From the IMG/VR virus record IMGVR_UViG_3300031555_010338: a stretch of 64,000 bases of DNA; one strand, 5' to 3'. Source of the stretch: a virus. Lineage: Duplodnaviria; Caudoviricetes. The notes beneath the pieces were generated by a model. It did no database searches, was not told the DNA's origin, and saw only the letters and a program-made list of their open reading frames with translations. Positions 11,892-64,000 of the stretch are shown piece after piece; positions within the stretch are counted from its first letter, which is position 1; each line of letters starts with the position of its first letter. A program made the position numbers and the translations under genes.

Positions 11892-12737
11892 TTAATTGCC
11901 GGTAGAATTTGAACCATTAACCGTGGCGTATGCTTTTACTGTATTTTTCAGCAATGCAACTCTGGTCATCAGGCCAACGCCGCCAGGAACCGGAGTAATC
12001 GCACTACACTTCTCGCTTACCGATGCAAAATCAACATCACCGCAAAGCTTACTATCTTCGCCTCTATTGATTCCAACATCCACAACAACCGCGCCATCCT
12101 TTACCATATCAGCCATAAGGAAACCAGGCTTCCCAACTGCACAAACGATAATATCTGCGTTTCGTGTGTAAGTAGAAATGTCTTTTGTTTTTGAATGACA
12201 TGTCGTTACAGTGCCACCCATACTGGTCAGCAATGCAGACATAGGTTTTCCAACAACATCACTTCTGCCGATCACAACACAATTCTTTCCCTCGACTTTA
12301 ATATCAAAGGCTTCCAGCAGATCAACAATACCAGAAGGTGTACACGGCATAAACGTCGGCCTACCAAGAACCAGCTTGCCAACACTCTCAGCCCTAAAGC
12401 AGTCCACATCTTTTTCTGGGTGGATATGCTCAATTACTGCGTTCTTGTCGATATGCTGCGGAAGAGGAAGCTGCACCAAAATACCGTCAACATCGTTTCG
12501 ATGATTTAGCGTCTGTACAGCGACAATTAAATCGCTTTGAGCTACTGTATCGTCAAAACGATATACACGGCAATCAATACCGCATTCCTCGCAATCCTTC
12601 TCCTTACCTCTGACATAAGCCTGAGAAGCAGGATTGTTACCTACCATGATTACGGCAAGCTTTGGTGGTCTTGCGAAGTTAGATATCGTTCTTCTTATTT
12701 TTTCTTTTTCTCTTGCGGCAACTTCCTTGCCGCTCAT
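11892..12737 (-). CDS. folD: Bifunctional methylenetetrahydrofolate dehydrogenase/cyclohydrolase
   Basis: GILVQLPLP, EKDVD, PCTP, VIGRSDVVGKP, ITPVPGGVG motifs. Confidence 0.95.
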   Translation of the reverse strand: MSGKEVAAREKEKIRRTISNFARPPKLAVIMVGNNPASQAYVRGKEKDCEECGIDCRVYRFDDTVAQSDLIVAVQTLNHRNDVDGILVQLPLPQHIDKNAVIEHIHPEKDVDCFRAESVGKLVLGRPTFMPCTPSGIVDLLEAFDIKVEGKNCVVIGRSDVVGKPMSALLTSMGGTVTTCHSKTKDISTYTRNADIIVCAVGKPGFLMADMVKDGAVVVDVGINRGEDSKLCGDVDFASVSEKCSAITPVPGGVGLMTRVALLKNTVKAYATVNGSNSTGN

Positions 12738-12775: not shown

Positions 12776-12867
12776 TGGTGCCGGCAGTAGGACTCGAACC
12801 CACAACCTGCCGCTTATCTGGCGCAACGGGGTATAATTCCGCTGCTCTACCATTGAGCTATGCCGGC
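12776..12867 (-). tRNA. tRNA-Ile-like with two anticodon arms (TAT and GAT)
   Basis: GCGGA-ATTATAC-CCCGT followed by TGCGC-CAGATAA-GCGGC-AGGTT, then T arm and CCA. Confidence 0.65.
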
Positions 12868-13949: not shown

Positions 13950-14040
13950 TGGCTGGGGTAGCAGGACTCGAACCTGCGGACGAGGGTAAACCTCTTGTCG
14001 GAGTCAAAGTCCGATGCCTTACCAACTTGGCGATACCCCA
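13950..14040 (-). tRNA. tRNA-Gln(TTG) with unusually long variable arm
   Basis: TCGGA-CTTTGAC-TCCGA, T1-A72, variable hairpin GAGG/CCTC, CCA. Confidence 0.85.
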
Positions 14041-15544: not shown

Positions 15545-15965
15545 TGGTGGAGTAGGCGGGAATCGAACCCGCGTCCGAAATTCCTACATGTACAAAACAT
15601 TCTTACGCAATAGTCGATAGTTTCTGCATTTACCGAATGGAAGGCTGCTTAGATGATCGACACAACAAATGCCCAGGGCGCACCGGTTTAGTGGCCTCCA
15701 CCACCTTGTTTCTTTTCACAGTGACAAGGAAAACTGCAATGCTGGCTGAATCATTATCCTCAGACGCTCACCCAACCAGAGGTGCGTCGTTTTGGTATCC
15801 GAACTGCTGTTAAGCAGCAACCCTCTCTGCCACACAAGCGGCCAGTGCAGGATGGATCATAACGAAAACTTCAGTGTTGTCATTTCATTTTTGTTTGAGC
15901 CGTAAGGAGGACTCATACCTGCGTGTTTTGCACTCTCAAAACCCCGTCGAACCCATTACTACCCC
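15545..15965 (-). ncRNA. ssrA: tmRNA
   Basis: 5' GGGGTAGTAATGGGTTCGACGGG; 3' GGACGCGGGTTCGATTCCCGCCTACTCCACCA with G3.U70; tag ORF DNTEVFVMIHPALAACVAERVAA*. Confidence 0.92.
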
Positions 15966-17130: not shown

Positions 17131-17766
17131 CCTTGAAAAATTCAATATCTCAATCACACTCATCATTCGGCCTTCGCCGTACCTCCATTACCTTCTTCCA
17201 ATCTTCTGCCACCAGGGAGACAAGTCTGAGCTTCGGGGAGCGACCCCTAACTTCTTGCCCCAGTCCCCGCCCTAAAAGAGCCGAACCACGAGTCCTGTGC
17301 GGGATTGTTTACCCGCAAATTTCACCGTTCGTTCAGAAATTGTTACTTTTACAATAACGCACCCAATTTGCATTATAGAAAGATCATCTTCTTCTCCGTC
17401 CTACGGCTACTTTAACCGGCGACTTTCGTTATAGCCGAATTTCTTCGACATCAAGACGGAAACGCATTGCTGGCTTTACCTCCGTCATTATGGCTGCCAC
17501 ACCATAACCCCATAGGCTTATTCTTCCACCGGAAGCGTCTATTGCTGCGCCCGAAAGTTCCGTGCATTTTGTAGCGATAACTCTTAGCACCACACATTTT
17601 TGTTGGCGGTTTCCGCCTCCCCACAATACATCGCTGCATCGCAGCCGCCCAGCAATAAAAGGTATCCCTCGTAAGCCAAACGGAAATTACTGCGTGTCTC
17701 TGAGTGCTGACGCACTTTGTTCACAGAGTTAATAATAAGCATGATTCAGATATTGAATTTTCAAGG
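17131..17766 (-). ncRNA. Large ornate ncRNA (ROOL/GOLLD-class candidate)
   Basis: ~635 nt closed by 19-20 bp terminal inverted repeat CCTTGAAAATTCAATATCT; many internal hairpins; no good ORF; among tRNAs. Confidence 0.65.
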
Positions 17767-60302: not shown

Positions 60303-61889
60303 ATGAAACTGAGACTTACTAAGGCCGGTCGTGCCGTCCTGTTCATTGCCATTATCGTTGTGTTGGGTGTGGGTGGCTTCTTTGGCTATCAGCATTTCGC
60401 CGGTGACGGCGCAAGCCTGATCGACCAGTTCCAGAGCGATAAGCTTCCCAGCAACGATACAAATGCTGGTGTTACCGACACCGCAAAGCCCAATAATAAC
60501 ACCGCTCAGAATATCGACACCAATGACACCACCATCAATCTGTCTCTGGACGAGTGGATTGGTTGGAAGCCCATTATTGATGCCAATCAGGGCTTGACTA
60601 CCCAGCCTGGTTCTATCTTTGATAAGCTTGGTCTGAAGGTCAATATCAATATTATCAACGATGCAGATGCTTCCAGCAATGCTCTGATTAAGGGTGATCT
60701 GAATGCAGCCGGCTATACGCTTAACCGTACCGCATTCCTTTCTGGTAAGTTCAGTGATGCCGGCCTGGATGTTGTGATGCCCGTGTTCACCAATTACTCT
60801 GATGGCGGCGATGGCATTATCGCTCTGAGCAAGTACAACACCATTGAGAGCCTTGTTGATGCCAAGATCGGTGTACCCAAGTTCAGTGAGGCACAGTCCC
60901 TTGTTATCTGGTTTGTGAATAAGTCCGATCTGCCCGATGCAGATAAGCAGAAGATTATCGACAATCTGATCCTGCTGGACGATGCTGAGCAGACCGGCCA
61001 GGCATTCTTCGCAGGCAGTCTGGACGTTGCTGCAACTTGGCAGCCCTACTTGTCCAACGCAGAGAATAGCACCAATTCCCACATTCTGTTCGATACCACT
61101 TCCTCTAACAAGCTGATTATGGACGGCATTTTGTTCCGCTCCGATTTTGCACAGGCACATCCCGACATGATTTCCGCCTTTATCGATGGCATTTTCCAGG
61201 CCGAGGATATGTACGAAACCGAGTTTAAGTATATCCGTAAGGTAATGCCTATGTTCGCTGACTCTTCTGATGAAGACATTCTGAGCATGTGCGGTGACGC
61301 TGGCCTGATGGGTTATACCGAGAATGTAAACGCTCTGGAAAACGACTGCCCCACCGTGTATGCAGACATGTGTGCAATCTGGGAGAGCATTGGCGAGACT
61401 GTTGACAGAACTCTTGGTGCAACTCTGTTTGACACCAGCTATGTAAAGACCCTTTCCAATAACTATTCTTCTCTGCCCCAGCAGTCTACCTTTGAGATTA
61501 CCGAAGAGCAGAAGGAAAGTATCAAGGATGTTGCTGCTCTTCTGACCAAGAGCGCCACCATCAACTTTATCCCCGATACTGCGAAGTTCCTGGATAATGC
61601 AGAGGCTGATGCTGTTCTGAGCGAGTTCGTTGAGATGGCTAAGACTCTGGATGGTACTATCATCCAGATCGAGGGCAATATCAACTCCAACAGCAACACC
61701 GAGGGCGGTATGAAGCTGTCCGAGGAACGCGCAAAGACCGTTAAGAACTACTTTGTGGCAAACGGCATTGATCCCAACCGCATTATCGTAGTCGGTAACG
61801 GCAATACAAAGATGGTCGCTGATCCCAATGGCCCCAATGCGGAGCAGAACCGAAGAACCGATATCTTCTTCAAGACGATTGAAAACTAA
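60303..61889 (+). CDS. ABC substrate-binding protein fused to OmpA-like domain
   Basis: NMT1/SsuA-like DEWIGW, SDGGDGI, ATWQPY; C-terminal IQIEGN..LSEERAKTVKNY..NRRTDI. Confidence 0.82.
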   Translation: MKLRLTKAGRAVLFIAIIVVLGVGGFFGYQHFAGDGASLIDQFQSDKLPSNDTNAGVTDTAKPNNNTAQNIDTNDTTINLSLDEWIGWKPIIDANQGLTTQPGSIFDKLGLKVNINIINDADASSNALIKGDLNAAGYTLNRTAFLSGKFSDAGLDVVMPVFTNYSDGGDGIIALSKYNTIESLVDAKIGVPKFSEAQSLVIWFVNKSDLPDADKQKIIDNLILLDDAEQTGQAFFAGSLDVAATWQPYLSNAENSTNSHILFDTTSSNKLIMDGILFRSDFAQAHPDMISAFIDGIFQAEDMYETEFKYIRKVMPMFADSSDEDILSMCGDAGLMGYTENVNALENDCPTVYADMCAIWESIGETVDRTLGATLFDTSYVKTLSNNYSSLPQQSTFEITEEQKESIKDVAALLTKSATINFIPDTAKFLDNAEADAVLSEFVEMAKTLDGTIIQIEGNINSNSNTEGGMKLSEERAKTVKNYFVANGIDPNRIIVVGNGNTKMVADPNGPNAEQNRRTDIFFKTIEN

Positions 61890-61914
61890 CATAGCCTAAA
61901 CAGGCATGGAAGTA

Positions 61915-61975
61915 ACGGCACTTACAGCAACTTTACTACACATAATTTGGGTTTATGATCGTGAAAATGTGCCGT
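61915..61975 (+). ncRNA. ACAGCAA-module RNA P1 with Pro(UGG) anticodon stem-loop mimic
   Basis: ACGGCAC-TTACAGCAA...CATAA-TTTGGGT-TTATG...GTGCCGT. Confidence 0.68.
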
Positions 61976-61996
61976 GTTGGAATACGAAATATAATA

Positions 61997-62053
61997 AAGG
62001 CGCTAACAGCAATGTTACAAAACATGGACTTGAAATCTATTCAAATGCGCCTT
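61997..62053 (+). ncRNA. ACAGCAA-module RNA P2 with Ser(UGA) anticodon stem-loop mimic
   Basis: AAGGCGC-TAACAGCAA...ATGGA-CTTGAAA-TCTAT...GCGCCTT. Confidence 0.68.
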
Positions 62054-62064
62054 GCAAAGAAAAT

Positions 62065-62157
62065 GGAGCAGTAAGCCTAACTGGTAAGATAGTCGCCTGC
62101 TAAGCGACGAGTAGCCGCGTAAGCGGTGTGCAGGTTCGAGTCCTGTCTGCTCCGCCA
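62065..62157 (+). tRNA. tRNA-Ser(GCT)
   Basis: GTCGC-CTGCTAA-GCGAC, long variable arm, GCCA. Confidence 0.88.
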
Positions 62158-62161
62158 TCAA

Positions 62162-62327
62162 GAGCAAGTAGGCAAAGAGAAAGCCTATTCATATCGACGA
62201 GCAATAACTGTAACACCTCCCTTTACTCACCATACATCCCCCTCCCTATCTCCTTTGTTCCCTGCTTCGTCGCATGAATACAAAATAGATTCGTCTATTG
62301 CATAGGAGCGTTGCCTATGCCTTGCTC
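62162..62327 (+). ncRNA. Structured RNA with large CU-rich (anti-SD-like) loop
   Basis: GAGCAAG-TAGGCAA/TTGCCTA-CTTGCTC outer stem; TATTCAT/ATGAATA and CGACGA-GCA/TGC-TCGTCG inner stems. Confidence 0.55.
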
Positions 62328-62340
62328 GATAAAAAAATCT

Positions 62341-62427
62341 GCTGGTGTGGTGGAATTGGCAGACACATCGGACTTAAGTTCCGATGCTCGTAAGGGCGTG
62401 TGGGTTCAAGTCCCACCGCCAGCACCA
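62341..62427 (+). tRNA. tRNA-Leu(TAA)
   Basis: TCGGA-CTTAAGT-TCCGA, long variable arm, CCA. Confidence 0.9.
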
Positions 62428-62432
62428 AACAC

Positions 62433-62546
62433 GGGAGCGTCTGGGCGGCAGCTTTTTACAGTGTATAGGACGGCGGACACTTACAGCAACTTTACAAAAA
62501 GAGTTATGGAAAAACTTAGCTTGCGGTTCGATTCCGCAGCTCCCCA
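62433..62546 (+). ncRNA. Degenerate tRNA-like RNA P3 with ACAGCAA insert (GGA loop)
   Basis: GGGAGC/GCTCCC-CA acceptor, T arm TGCGG-TTCGATT-CCGCA, GACAC-TTACAGCAA, GAGTT-ATGGAAA-AACTT. Confidence 0.55.
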
Positions 62547-62613
62547 AAGCCGTTAATTTTCTTCAAAGTCCGGTTAATTTTATTGGCAGTCGATGATAAG
62601 ACATAATAGACAT

Positions 62614-62732
62614 GCGGAAGTAGCTCAGTCGGTAGAGCAACAGTAAAAAAAATGTGTCGTGTATATGACGCACACAGCAATTTCAAATATGGGAACTGCG
62701 TGTCGGAGGTTCGAGTCCTCCCTTCCGCGCGA
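62614..62732 (+). ncRNA. tRNA-Pro(TGG)-like RNA P4 with 43-nt ACAGCAA insert
   Basis: Acceptor, D and T arms intact; insert TGTGTCG..TGACGCA-CACAGCAA in anticodon loop. Confidence 0.7.
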
Positions 62733-62736
62733 ATAT

Positions 62737-62855
62737 GCCAGGGTAGCTCAGTTGGATAGAGCGCGTAAATAACGCGACTTGTACAAGACGCTAACAGCAA
62801 TTTCTTTTGGTCTGTTAAACCCGTGGTCGTGGGTTCGAGTCCCACCCCTGGCGCA
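62737..62855 (+). ncRNA. tRNA-Asn(GTT)-like RNA P5 with 43-nt ACAGCAA insert
   Basis: Removing 62766-62808 gives perfect CGGGT-CTGTTAA-ACCCG arm. Confidence 0.75.
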
Positions 62856-62860
62856 TTTAT

Positions 62861-62977
62861 ACGGTGGTCGTCAAGTGGTAAGACAGCGGCCATATAAAAT
62901 GTGACCGTAAGGCTCACTAACAGCAAAGTTATGAAGCCAAGCCGCCACCGCAGGTTCGATTCCTGCCCACCGTTCCA
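62861..62977 (+). ncRNA. tRNA-Gly(GCC)-like RNA P6 with 43-nt ACAGCAA insert
   Basis: GCGGC/GCCGC stem, T73, CCA; insert GTGA-CC-GTAA-GG-CTCAC-TAACAGCAA. Confidence 0.72.
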
Positions 62978-63202
62978 CGGGGATAAGCTGACTTCGCCAT
63001 TCAAACAGCCCCTTATTAAACTGGTAGAAATGGCCTCTGGTACAGCAGAAGTAAAGAGGTATAGCCGGCGATGAGTCGTAGTAACCGGCGAGGTTAAGAG
63101 CTGACGCATGGGAACTGTAACTCCCTGGGCATCGTGAAAAGTCATCCACGGCCACACGGATGGTACGATGTACCGCTCCTGCATAGGTGCGCATATGCAA
63201 AT

Positions 63203-63277
63203 CGAGACACTTACAGCAACATTAAAGGTTAAAGTAGTTGGTAGCATTGCCGATGCGAGAAGGTTCAAGTCCTTCAC
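63203..63277 (+). ncRNA. ACAGCAA-module RNA P7 enclosing Gly(GCC) loop and T arm
   Basis: CGAGACAC-TTACAGCAA...GCA-TTGCCGA-TGC..GAAGG-TTCAAGT-CCTTC..GTGTCTCG. Confidence 0.65.
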
Positions 63278-63299
63278 TCGTGTCTCGTAAACCTCCTTT

Positions 63300-63405
63300 A
63301 AGACACCTGCAGCAAATAACAATGGGAGTCGTTTTAATTGGTAAAGACGGCTGGATACCAGTCATGCGGGTTCGAGTCCCGTCTTCTATTAAAATGGCGT
63401 GTCTT
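63300..63405 (+). ncRNA. ACAGCAA-module RNA P8 enclosing an anticodon-less tRNA
   Basis: AAGACAC-CTGCAGCAA...acceptor-like, D arm, GCTGG-ATA-CCAGT, T arm...GTGTCTT. Confidence 0.65.
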
Positions 63406-63462
63406 GGGGAATCGCGTTTCTTTTATTGGAATTAGCAAAACAATTTAAGGAGGAACTAAGAA

Positions 63463-64000
63463 ATGAGCAATTTTATGTCTGCGGTCAAGAACACTCTGAA
63501 CAATGAGTGTAACTACTCCATGACGGAGAATGGTGCGCTGGGCTATCGCACCACCGGCAAGGAGCTGTTGGATCTCAACTTTGCGGTTGCTTCTCTGCGC
63601 CGCGCAACTCCCAGCGAAATCGCAAACCGATTTACAAAGGCTTTCTTTGAGGACAAGATCGTTGCGATGAAGTGGCTGTTCTTCGCCCGTGATGTTCGTG
63701 GTGGCCTGGGTGAGCGCCGCCTGTTCAGAACCATCCTGTCTAATATGGCTCACACAAACCCCGAATACATCGTACCTCTGCTGGAACTCGTTCCTGAGTA
63801 TGGCCGCTACGATGATCTGTGGTGTCTGCTCGATACCGAGCTGCAGAAGGATGTTCTGGATGTGATTTCCAAGCAGCTTACCGAAGACATCCAGAACTTG
63901 AAGGAAGGCAAGGGTATTTCCCTGCTGGCAAAATGGCTTCCTTCTCCCAATGCTTCTTCTAAGACTACCAAGCGGTATGCCAAGAAGATTTACAAGCACA
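63463..64000 (+). CDS. DUF2828-family (TROVE/Ro60-like) protein, partial
   Basis: Manual translation MSNFMSAVK...TENGALGYRTTGKELLDL...LFFARDVRGGLGERRLFR...PEYGRYDDL...SLLAKWLPS; RBS AGGAGG. Confidence 0.8.
   Translation, partial: MSNFMSAVKNTLNNECNYSMTENGALGYRTTGKELLDLNFAVASLRRATPSEIANRFTKAFFEDKIVAMKWLFFARDVRGGLGERRLFRTILSNMAHTNPEYIVPLLELVPEYGRYDDLWCLLDTELQKDVLDVISKQLTEDIQNLKEGKGISLLAKWLPSPNASSKTTKRYAKKIYKH

What the first reader, a model, noticed from the sequence alone, without database searches (positions are those of the whole stretch)
62614..62977. Three tandem tRNA genes, each interrupted by exactly 43 extra nt carrying the ACAGCAA hairpin
Seen: Pro-, Asn- and Gly-like tRNAs have intact acceptor, D and T arms but a circularly permuted module (hairpin then ACAGCAA) in the anticodon arm. 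For Asn, deleting 62766-62808 (43 nt) restores a perfect CGGGT-CTGTTAA-ACCCG arm. For Pro (62645-62689) and Gly (62891-62935), 45 nt lie between positions 31 and 34, again 43 extra, although the inserts differ in sequence. Excision would leave A33 rather than U33 in Pro and Gly. The inserts are far too short for group I/II introns. Inference: either a new protein-dependent mini-intron class (a conditionally activated tRNA reserve) or permanent tRNA-handle chimeras under a length constraint.
Basis: partly seen in the sequence, partly recalled or inferred. Interest (0 to 1): 0.9.

Follow-up and report, generated by a model that had tools for sequence, protein, structure and literature searches.

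The report
tRNA mimics carrying Ro60-type handle
Three tRNA-shaped genes in this gut-bacterial prophage each carry a conserved 43-base side arm that is most likely a permanent docking handle for the Ro60-like ring protein encoded next door, not an intron, which places them in a widespread and apparently undescribed relative of the Ro60/Y-RNA particles.

Summary
Three tandem tRNA-like genes (62614-62729, 62737-62853, 62861-62974) have complete acceptor, D and T arms. Each has 43 extra nt in the anticodon arm: a hairpin followed by ACAGCAA.

The insert is a conserved RNA module. Its helix covaries, with G-U pairs. It also occurs free-standing, with the helix closed the other way, between this phage's tRNAs.

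The gene just downstream (DUF2828 + vWA) folds like Ro60. In 80 bacterial loci chosen only by that protein, 98 of 102 module hits lie within 2 kb upstream on the same strand. In 151 related genomes, hits occur only where DUF2828 is present.

The evidence is against an intron:
- The insert site differs between genes (28/29, or after 31).
- Removal leaves A33 in two of the three genes.
- There is no BHB motif, EndA or RtcB.
- Encoded CCA is mostly missing.
- Intact Pro and Asn tRNAs exist elsewhere in the phage.

"Exactly 43" is only the mode (16 of 80; range 33-58).

Best reading: these are unspliced tRNA-shaped partner RNAs, an inside-out analogue of YrlA Y RNAs, belonging to a Ro60-like particle linked to RNA repair or counter-defence. 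Binding and function are inferred, not shown.

This scan reached the same reading on other genomes. I found no paper describing it.

The parts
62614..62729 (+). tRNA-shaped RNA A. The body is Pro-like and TGG-G-A is kept 5' of the 3' strand of the anticodon stem. There is no encoded CCA.
   Evidence: Rfam tRNA 49.8 bits; sequence; parse; 3' end.
62645..62687 (+). 43-nt insert of A, placed after position 31 (class 2). It consists of an A-rich linker, an 8-bp hairpin, ACAGCAA (62674-62680) and a linker.
   Evidence: Model R1 hit at 62645-62685, 43.9 bits; fold; parse.
62737..62853 (+). tRNA-shaped RNA B. It is Asn-type with an intact CTGTTAA loop on the lower anticodon stem. There is no encoded CCA.
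   Evidence: Rfam tRNA 45.2 bits; parse; 3' end.
62766..62808 (+). 43-nt insert of B, placed between positions 28 and 29 of the anticodon stem (class 1). It is a hairpin with one A-A mismatch followed by ACAGCAA (62794-62800).
   Evidence: R1 hit at 62765-62805, 37.0 bits; sequence; parse.
62861..62977 (+). tRNA-shaped RNA C. It is Gly-type: GCC-A-A is kept, the discriminator is U73 and CCA is encoded.
   Evidence: Rfam tRNA 44.8 bits; ARAGORN in intron mode; 3' end.
62891..62933 (+). 43-nt insert of C, placed after position 31 (class 2). It is a hairpin with a bulge and a GTAA loop followed by ACAGCAA (62920-62926).
   Evidence: R1 hit at 62892-62931, 29.7 bits; parse.
61915..62053 (+). Two free-standing handle RNAs (61915-61975 and 61997-62053). 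Each has a closing helix, then ACAGCAA, then a small anticodon-like hairpin as cargo.
   Evidence: Sequence context; folds; weaker R1 hits.
62433..62546 (+). A fourth handle-bearing tRNA-like RNA. It keeps the acceptor stem and T arm, has a degenerate D region, and carries ACAGCAA at 62483.
   Evidence: Sequence; fold; R1 21.1 bits.
63203..63395 (+). Two further handle RNAs with T-arm-like cargo. Their cores are ACAGCAA at 63213 and the variant GCAGCAA at 63309.
   Evidence: Sequence; folds; motif list.
63463..64000 (+). Start of the DUF2828 + DUF7788/vWA gene, the Ro60-like proposed protein partner. The full gene encodes 505 aa and runs past the end of the window.
   Evidence: Pfam; AlphaFold2 model; Foldseek top 13 hits all Ro60/TROVE; invariant MIDAS motif DxSxS.

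Best explanation
A, B and C are not interrupted tRNA genes waiting to be spliced. They are mature, unspliced tRNA-shaped RNAs of about 115-120 nt.

Proposed roles of the parts:
- The tRNA body gives RNase P/RNase Z-type processing, stability and tRNA mimicry. This is inferred.
- The 43-nt side arm (A-rich linker, 7-8 bp helix, NN-ACAGCAA, linker) is a docking handle for the Ro60-like ring protein (DUF2828 + vWA) encoded directly downstream. This is inferred from co-location.
- The handle sits 7-16 nt 5' of retained anticodon nucleotides. The particle would therefore present an anticodon, or a whole anticodon loop, next to the bound protein.

Together with the free-standing handle RNAs, these genes would form a Y-RNA-like set of partner RNAs. 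The topology is inverted relative to YrlA: the RNA ends lie at the acceptor stem and the protein site lies in the anticodon arm.

The likely role is in tRNA-directed RNA repair or counter-defence, for example as a decoy or sensor for enzymes that attack or read anticodon loops. The phage also carries an RNA ligase and a kinase/phosphatase. This functional step is speculative.
For: Shown:
1. Complete tRNA bodies with a 43-nt insert.
2. The insert is a conserved structured RNA. In 53 distinct copies, 91.8% of helix cells pair against 67% in shuffles. There are 109 double-sided changes against 40 expected, with 0 of 500 shuffles as high. Slid controls pair at 32-50%, and G-U pairs are present.
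3. The same module occurs free-standing with the helix closed the other way, so it has no exons there.
4. The A-B-C trio is syntenic in IMG/VR phages whose DUF2828 protein is 65-74% identical.
5. The DUF2828 protein has a Ro60 fold. The top 13 PDB matches are all Ro60/TROVE rings over the full length, E 7.5e-9 to 7e-5, and the vWA MIDAS motif is invariant.
6. The module tracks the gene:
   - 98 of 102 model hits in 80 bacterial loci picked by protein alone lie within 2 kb upstream on the same strand.
   - In 9.7 Mb of three whole genomes, 7 of 9 hits abut a DUF2828 gene and the other 2 lie about 40 kb from one, each on its contig.
   - In 151 genomes of one family there are hits in 3 of 8 DUF2828-positive genomes and 0 of 143 negative ones.
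   - With a sensitive local search the positive count rises to 6 of 8.
   - In distant AT-rich phages the module sits just downstream of the gene instead.
7. Evidence against splicing:
   - Two insertion classes exist: 28/29, and after position 31.
   - U33 is present in only 14 of 48 class-2 copies, and A33 in 27.
   - There is no strict BHB motif.
   - The phage has no EndA or RtcB.
   - CCA is encoded in 16 of 80 copies against 126 of 171 canonical tRNAs in the same loci. All 29 canonical tRNAs of this phage encode CCA.
   - Intact Pro-UGG and Asn-GUU tRNAs exist elsewhere in the phage.
8. An RNA ligase and a PNK/HD gene lie 9-12 kb downstream here. In 9 related loci the ligase lies about 1.3-5.8 kb beyond the end of the DUF2828 gene, about 1.3 kb in 8 of them.
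Against: - There are no expression, binding or end-mapping data. Protein-RNA binding rests only on co-location.
- For the Asn-type gene B, precise removal of the insert gives a perfect tRNA, so splicing is formally possible.
- The Gly-type lineage C keeps U73, the 2:71 and 3:70 acceptor pairs and often CCA. It may therefore still be aminoacylated.
- Five handle copies lie about 47 kb from the DUF2828 gene, in the other tRNA cluster.
- One DUF2828-positive genome gave no model hit and another only non-significant ones. One viral locus showed none within 4 kb.
- The fold match has modest TM-scores (0.36-0.49) on a model of mean pLDDT 75.7. There is no sequence-level match to Ro60.
- The sequences compared are related to one another, so the P-values are inflated.
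Confidence: 0.65

Rival explanations
1. The insert is a new protein-dependent mini-intron. A nuclease recognises the hairpin plus ACAGCAA and excises the insert, and the phage RNA ligase and kinase/phosphatase reseal the halves. This would activate a reserve of tRNAs, for example after host anticodon-nuclease attack.
For: - Exact removal of 43 nt from B restores a canonical Asn anticodon arm.
- Class-1 copies keep a 7-nt loop with U33 in 26 of 32 cases, with a covarying lower stem.
- The phage encodes an RNA ligase and a PNK/HD end-healing enzyme.
Against: - The lower stem and loop can form without splicing.
- A and C would keep A33.
- The insertion site is not fixed.
- There is no BHB motif, no EndA or RtcB, and no group I intron model hit.
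- The same module stands alone without exons.
- Encoded CCA is mostly absent although all 29 canonical tRNAs of this phage have it.
- Intact Pro and Asn tRNAs already exist in the phage.
- The anticodon loop has degenerated in some C-type orthologues.
Confidence: 0.12
2. The module is a functional RNA element that does not work through the DUF2828 protein. It could be a processing or stability signal for a host or phage ribonuclease, or a site for another protein. Its position beside DUF2828 would then reflect shared operon history only.
For: - Copies also sit directly 3' of ordinary tRNAs in the distant tRNA cluster.
- No binding data exist.
- ACAGCAA contains ACA- and GCA-type sites of the kind that some toxin RNases cut. 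This last point is my own knowledge, not tested here.
Against: - The positional link to DUF2828 holds across loci with 42-77% protein identity, on the same strand within 2 kb.
- It holds even when the order flips to downstream of the gene.
- Whole-genome searches find the module only in DUF2828-positive genomes.
- The Ro60 family is known to pair with adjacent small RNAs (PMC4201824, PMC12135203).
Confidence: 0.15
3. The three genes are decaying tRNA pseudogenes disrupted by a small mobile or repetitive element.
For: - The insert is repeated in the genome.
- One orthologue (L031:5178-5283) has lost the 3' half of its handle.
Against: - The trio is syntenic and conserved across divergent phages.
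- The helix shows compensatory changes.
- The tRNA bodies still score 45-50 bits.
- No uninterrupted B-type anticodon arm was found in 2.9 million viral contigs.
- Inserts differ in sequence between copies, unlike transposed repeats.
Confidence: 0.03

Closest known systems
YrlA-type Y RNAs with Ro60/Rsr in bacteria and mycobacteriophages (Rfam RF02553; PMC4201824), and Yrl1/Yrl2 of Thermus phage phiLo (PMC12135203)
   Same: - Small RNAs are encoded in tandem directly beside a Ro60-fold ring protein with a vWA domain.
- The RNAs contain tRNA-like D and T arms.
- The setting links to RNA repair genes.
- The free-standing copies have a terminal stem next to a conserved unpaired motif, like the stem-bulge-stem of Y RNAs.
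   Different: - The protein is Pfam DUF2828 + DUF7788, not TROVE, and has no sequence-level match to Ro60.
- The conserved motif is ACAGCAA, not GNCGAA.
- The Rfam YrlA model scores 27.9 and 18.8 bits against a gathering score of 69.
- In A-C the RNA ends are at a normal open acceptor stem and the protein site is a hairpin in the anticodon arm. This is the reverse of YrlA.
- Anticodon nucleotides are retained.
Protein-spliced tRNA introns of archaea and eukaryotes (BHB motif, EndA endonuclease), including non-canonical positions and split or permuted tRNA genes
   Same: A short insert of tens of nt lies in the anticodon arm of an otherwise intact tRNA gene. In B, exact removal restores the arm.
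   Different: - No BHB motif.
- No EndA or RtcB in the phage.
- The host is bacterial.
- The positions are 28/29 and after 31, not 37/38.
- Removal leaves A33 in A and C.
- The module also occurs without exons.
Group I introns in bacterial and phage tRNA genes
   Same: They interrupt the anticodon loop of bacterial or phage tRNA genes.
   Different: Group I introns are more than 200 nt long with a P1-P9 core. Here the insert is 43 nt, and no intron family is matched in Rfam.
Engineered 'tRNA scaffold' for expressing structured RNAs (an insert replaces the anticodon arm). This comes from my own knowledge of Ponchon and Dardel 2007; I did not check the paper here.
   Same: A tRNA body carries a foreign structured RNA in its anticodon arm and supplies processing and stability.
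   Different: That is a laboratory design. Here the arrangement is natural, conserved and retains the anticodon.
Phage T4 Pnkp/Rnl1 tRNA repair against anticodon nucleases. This comes from established knowledge and was not tested here.
   Same: The phage carries many tRNAs together with an RNA ligase and an end-healing kinase/phosphatase.
   Different: T4 has no Ro60-like protein and no handle-bearing tRNA mimics. A link between the ligase and these RNAs is inferred from gene proximity only.

Membership tests
tRNA (Rfam RF00005) | Cloverleaf with acceptor, D and T arms scoring above the gathering score | tested here: met
   49.8, 45.2 and 44.8 bits against a gathering score of 29. U8, A14, G18-G19 and the T-loop TTCGA are visible in the sequence.
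tRNA (Rfam RF00005) | Contiguous 5-bp anticodon stem closing a 7-nt loop with U33 | tested here: not met
   All three genes have 43 extra nt. After removal in silico, B is canonical (CTGTTAA) but A (TATGGGA) and C (AAGCCAA) have A33. Family-wide, U33 occurs in 14 of 48 class-2 copies.
tRNA (Rfam RF00005) | 3' CCA and aminoacylation | not testable with these tools
   CCA is encoded in C only. A and B lack it, while all 29 canonical tRNAs of the phage encode it. CCA addition and charging need experiments.
YrlA / Y RNA (Rfam RF02553) | Reaches the family's gathering score | tested here: not met
   The best hits score 27.9 and 18.8 bits against 69. Both span the T arm of one gene and the D arm of the next.
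YrlA / Y RNA (Rfam RF02553) | Ro-binding stem formed by the RNA's 5' and 3' ends, carrying the GNCGAA motif (PMC4201824) | tested here: not met
   There is no CGAA in the inserts of A-C. The conserved motif is ACAGCAA, 3' of a hairpin. The RNA ends are at the acceptor stem.
YrlA / Y RNA (Rfam RF02553) | Encoded beside a Ro60/Rsr gene | tested here: met
   The adjacent gene has a Ro60 fold, and the module tracks it across genomes. It is met at fold level only; Pfam calls the protein DUF2828/DUF7788, not TROVE.
YrlA / Y RNA (Rfam RF02553) | Physically bound by the Ro60 protein | not testable with these tools
   This needs RIP/CLIP or gel shift. The complex-prediction tool takes proteins only.
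BHB-type protein-spliced tRNA intron | Bulge-helix-bulge motif at the two junctions | tested here: not met
   There are 0 strict hBHBh' candidates in A, B or C; shuffles give 0.4-1.3 by chance. Relaxed forms were not scanned.
BHB-type protein-spliced tRNA intron | Splicing endonuclease (EndA, PF01974) and RtcB-type ligase available | tested here: not met
   The only PF01974 hit (12 bits, E 0.025) lies in a FolD-like ORF. There is no RtcB. This covers the phage genome only; the host was not examined.
Group I intron | Core of more than 200 nt matching the Rfam intron models | tested here: not met
   The inserts are 43 nt. No intron family is matched even at E up to 10.
Ro60/TROVE protein (the proposed partner) | HEAT-repeat ring plus a vWA domain with a MIDAS motif | tested here: met
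   The Foldseek top 13 hits are all Ro60/TROVE structures over about 500-570 columns. D298-x-S300-x-S302 is invariant in 17 homologues. The model is of medium confidence, mean pLDDT 75.7.
Ro60/TROVE protein (the proposed partner) | Matches Pfam TROVE or Ro60 by sequence | tested here: not met
   Pfam gives DUF2828, DUF7788 and VWA_2 only, at E up to 0.001. A profile search of PDB sequences finds no Ro60.

The most novel reading that the evidence does not exclude
The DUF2828 ring and its handle RNAs form a programmable 'anticodon display' particle. Each RNA holds a chosen anticodon (Pro, Asn or Gly here; Ile, Thr, Lys, Arg or Ser in relatives) 7-16 nt from the protein handle. The particle would act as a decoy, sensor or repair guide against host anticodon nucleases. 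That would be a new class of phage counter-defence built on tRNA mimicry, possibly coupled to the phage RNA ligase and kinase/phosphatase.
Probability: 0.25. Interest if true: 0.85.

Novelty: new variant of a known kind. Interest (0 to 1): 0.66.

Why it matters
Ro60/Y-RNA particles are conserved from bacteria to humans, and their function is still poorly understood. Here a very large gut-microbiome protein family (DUF2828; more than 8000 related proteins in one search) turns out to have a Ro60 fold. It comes with its own recognisable RNA handle.

That handle is grafted onto whole tRNA bodies or onto bare anticodon hairpins. If binding is confirmed:
- many 'tRNAs with odd introns' in phage and prophage annotation would be explained;
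- a clean sequence signature would be available for finding the partner RNAs of a Ro60-like protein;
- the link between Ro60-type particles, tRNA mimicry and RNA repair or phage counter-defence would become directly testable, since the displayed anticodon is an obvious variable to manipulate.

It also warns annotators that these genes should not be counted as decoding tRNAs.

Tried and rejected
- YrlA membership. The Rfam YrlA hits (27.9 and 18.8 bits) only bridge the T arm of one gene and the D arm of the next. Rejected.
- Splicing endonuclease. The weak PF01974 hit lies in a FolD-like ORF inside the tRNA cluster. Rejected. There is no RtcB.
- BHB motif. None was found.
- DNA-level promoter reading of GRCRC-NNN-CAGCAA. 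I considered this because the motif is contiguous and strand-specific. I rejected it because the helix partner covaries with G-U pairs, which only make sense in RNA. The sigma-70 and terminator scan of 61700-63600 was uninformative.
- Known self-cleaving ribozymes. No Rfam family is matched even at E up to 10.
- blastn of 61900-63460 against deposited phage genomes found only ordinary tRNA-Leu similarity.
- A search for an uninterrupted B-type anticodon arm in IMG/VR found nothing.
- The strict motif regex missed distant loci whose helices are AT-rich or whose core is ACTGCAA, ACCGCAA or GCAGCAA. The MAFFT alignment of the handles had register shifts, so pair counts were made on the model-fitted alignment, which leans towards the structure.
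- One R1 hit of 27.7 bits lies inside a 1238-aa ORF and looks like a chance match. I therefore treat only hits of about 29 bits or more, or hits in the right place, as reliable.
- A-rich 5' linker pairing with the 3' linker. This is not conserved across homologues, judged by inspection.
- Literature. Four full-text searches for a description of DUF2828 as a Ro60-like RNA partner or of this handle found none.

Full report
**Setting.** The window is positions 31572-95571 of a 143,788-bp provirus record with 45% G+C. The phage carries 27 canonical tRNAs, a tmRNA and a ROOL RNA on the minus strand at 11-18 kb. Two more canonical tRNAs lie on the plus strand at 62.0-62.4 kb. The closest bacterial copies of the neighbouring gene are in Oscillospiraceae and other gut Clostridia.

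- Rfam's tRNA model matches 62614-62729, 62737-62853 and 62861-62974 at 45-50 bits. Acceptor, D and T arms are complete, and 49-56 nt replace the anticodon-arm positions.
- Default ARAGORN does not report them. In intron mode it does, but its intron boundaries are unreliable.
Each gene has 43 extra nt, and B is restored exactly by deleting 62766-62808. In A and C the two bases before the anticodon would be TA and AA, so position 33 would be A.
- The genes are 7 nt apart. A and B lack an encoded CCA and C has one, whereas all 29 canonical tRNAs of this phage encode CCA.
- Intact Pro(UGG), Asn(GUU) and Gly(UCC) tRNAs exist in the other cluster.

**The insert is a conserved RNA module.**
- Each insert has an A-rich linker, a 7-8 bp hairpin, two or three bases, ACAGCAA, and a second linker.
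- ACAGCAA is over-represented in the window, 27 copies against 11.5 expected.
- Of 15 relaxed matches to the extended motif in the whole genome, 12 lie in the two tRNA regions on the tRNA strand.
- Between tRNAs the module is free-standing. The same helix closes the RNA, ACAGCAA follows its 5' strand, and the A-rich stretch precedes its 3' strand. The cargo is a small hairpin.
- A covariance model of the hairpin form (R1) scores A, B and C at 43.9, 37.0 and 29.7 bits.
- On 53 distinct copies from phages and bacterial genomes the helix is 91.8% paired, against 67% in shuffles. There are 109 double-sided changes against 40 expected, with 0 of 500 shuffles as high. Slid controls pair at 32-50%.
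- The three pairs nearest ACAGCAA are G-C, Y-R, G-C, and the distal four vary freely.
- G-U pairs in the hairpins show that the structure acts in RNA, not DNA.
- That alignment was fitted to the model, so the counts lean towards the structure. The slid controls still argue that the effect is real.

**The arrangement is conserved.**
- Twenty-three IMG/VR loci encode a relative of the downstream protein. Those at 65-74% identity carry the same syntenic trio of long tRNA-like genes.
- I parsed 80 distinct handle-bearing tRNA-likes from these loci and from 80 bacterial loci. Insert length is 33-58 nt with a mode of 43 (16 of 80) and a second cluster at 51-52. 'Exactly 43' is therefore a preferred length, not a rule.
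- There are two insertion classes.
  - Class 1 (32 copies, including B) has the insert between positions 28 and 29. A normal 7-nt loop with U33 follows in 26 of 32 copies.
  - Class 2 (48 copies, including A and C) has the insert after position 31. 'Position 33' is T in only 14 copies and A in 27.
- The anticodon lies 7-16 nt 3' of ACAGCAA in most copies.
- Within one body lineage the displayed anticodon can change. B-type bodies carry GTT, TGT, TTT, GAT, GGT or TCT.

**The neighbouring protein has a Ro60 fold.**
- The gene starting at 63463 encodes 505 aa with Pfam DUF2828, DUF7788 and a weak VWA_2 match.
- An AlphaFold2 model built from 17 homologues has mean pLDDT 75.7.
- Its best 13 Foldseek matches in the PDB are all Ro60/TROVE rings: Thermus phage phiLo, Xenopus, human and Deinococcus. 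They cover the full length, with E 7.5e-9 to 7e-5 and TM-scores 0.36-0.49.
- The vWA MIDAS motif is invariant.
- A sequence profile finds no Ro60 in the PDB, so the relationship is visible only at fold level.
- The family is very large in gut metagenomes.

**The module tracks this gene.**
- In 80 bacterial-genome loci selected only by the protein (42-77% identity), R1 gave 102 hits at E up to 0.05. Of these, 98 lie within 2 kb upstream on the gene's strand. That zone is about 9% of the searched space.
- In three whole genomes (9.7 Mb), 7 of 9 hits abut a DUF2828 gene. The other 2 lie about 40 kb from one, each on its contig.
- In 151 genomes of one family, hits occurred in 3 of 8 DUF2828-positive genomes and 0 of 143 negative ones. 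A sensitive local search raised the positives to 6 of 8, each hit immediately upstream on the same strand.
- In distant AT-rich phages the module lies just downstream of the gene instead.
- The sequences are related to one another, so the P-values overstate independence. The pattern is nevertheless consistent.

**Intron or handle?** The evidence against an intron:
- The insertion site varies, and most class-2 copies would keep a non-U33 loop.
- There is no strict BHB motif.
- The phage has no EndA or RtcB, and no group I or ribozyme family is matched.
- CCA is encoded in 16 of 80 handle-bearing genes against 126 of 171 canonical tRNAs in the same loci.
- Some C-type orthologues have a degenerate loop.
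- The identical module occurs where there are no exons to join.
- No uninterrupted B-type anticodon arm exists in IMG/VR, so these look like dedicated scaffolds rather than recently invaded tRNA genes.

The evidence for an intron:
- Removal from B and other class-1 copies is exact, and the lower stem covaries. That stem can also form in the unspliced RNA.
- The phage has an RNA ligase and a PNK/HD enzyme.

I put the intron model at about 0.12.

**Most likely mechanism.**
- Shown: tRNA-shaped bodies, a covarying handle, a Ro60-fold neighbour, and a strong genomic association between handle and gene.
- Inferred: the RNAs stay unspliced, the handle binds the DUF2828 ring, and the tRNA body provides processing and mimicry.
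- Speculative: the particle presents anticodon loops to enzymes that read or cut them, as part of RNA repair or counter-defence. In support, an RNA ligase and a PNK/HD gene lie 9-12 kb downstream here. In 9 related loci the ligase lies about 1.3-5.8 kb beyond the end of the DUF2828 gene, about 1.3 kb in 8 of them. In addition, bacterial Ro60 operons are known to include RNA repair enzymes and tRNA-like Y RNAs (PMC4201824, PMC7790460, PMC7824862).

**Comparison with what is known.** The system works like Ro60 with YrlA-type Y RNAs, including the phage example phiLo (PMC12135203). It fails the membership tests for YrlA on Rfam score, on the GNCGAA motif and on RNA ends at the protein-binding stem. 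The protein is not a Pfam TROVE member. I therefore file it as a new variant of a known kind. Four full-text searches found no description of it.

**Earlier notes from this scan.** Other agents reached the same reading on this genome and on at least a dozen others. I had stated the Y-RNA/DUF2828 hypothesis before opening those notes, and I re-tested the fold, the association, the covariation and the intron criteria independently here. Their agreement is not independent evidence.

Noticed in passing
window 12776-12867 (-) and 13950-14040 (-): Two otherwise canonical tRNAs with encoded CCA are 91-92 nt long. The 'Ile(UAU)' gene can be read in two ways: with a long variable arm, or as an Ile(GAU)-type arm (CGC-CAGATAA-GCG) with a 17-nt insert at 28/29 that has no ACAGCAA. 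The Gln(UUG) gene has a hairpin-bearing long variable arm, which is unusual for Gln.
   Followed up: partly
window 11892-12737 (-): A 281-aa FolD-like ORF (methylene-tetrahydrofolate dehydrogenase/cyclohydrolase, judged from its sequence) sits inside the tRNA cluster. It caused a spurious weak tRNA-intron-endonuclease hit.
   Followed up: partly
window 15545-15965 (-) and 17149-17752 (-): A phage-encoded tmRNA (97.8 bits) and a full-length ROOL RNA (384 bits) are embedded in the same tRNA cluster.
   Followed up: no
L001:5737-6933 (genome 99136-100332): An adenylosuccinate-synthetase-like gene (Pfam E 1.3e-40) lies 2.6 kb downstream of the DUF2828 gene. It could be a PurZ-type enzyme for 2-aminoadenine DNA. 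This was not examined.
   Followed up: no
L001:12296-13702 and L001:14959-15909: An RNA-ligase-like gene (weak Pfam RNA_ligase match plus a PHA02142 OB fold) and an AAA_33 kinase + HD phosphohydrolase gene form an RNA end-healing and sealing pair. The ligase lies about 1.3-5.8 kb downstream of DUF2828 in 9 related loci, about 1.3 kb in 8 of them.
   Followed up: partly
L020:3699-3805, L027:674-777, L033:5699-5805: These tRNA-like genes lie within the same arrays but carry a different insert of about 33 nt (two small hairpins, no ACAGCAA) at the same place in the anticodon stem, followed by a CATTTAA loop. They may carry a second kind of arm.
   Followed up: no
L034:4057, L039:5339, L053:4817, L058:5260, L068:5583, L097:5614 and L097:5763: Some lineages carry core variants of the handle (ACTGCAA, ACCGCAA, ACCCGCAA). 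GCAGCAA occurs at window 63309 and in L024. The invariant part seems to be GCAA preceded by AC-N.
   Followed up: partly
L031:5178-5283 compared with L032:5157-5283: In one orthologue a 21-nt deletion has removed the 3' strand of the handle helix and the core, while the tRNA body is intact. This is a natural handle-loss variant.
   Followed up: no
genome 18602-18640 (-), outside the window: A 27.7-bit match to the handle model lies inside a 1238-aa ORF. It is probably a chance match and it sets a practical score floor for the model.
   Followed up: yes
window 61960-62017: The 3' strand of the first free-standing handle can also pair with the 5' strand of the next one, because all helices share the GYGYC/GRCRC base. 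Neighbouring modules could therefore fold in alternative registers.
   Followed up: no
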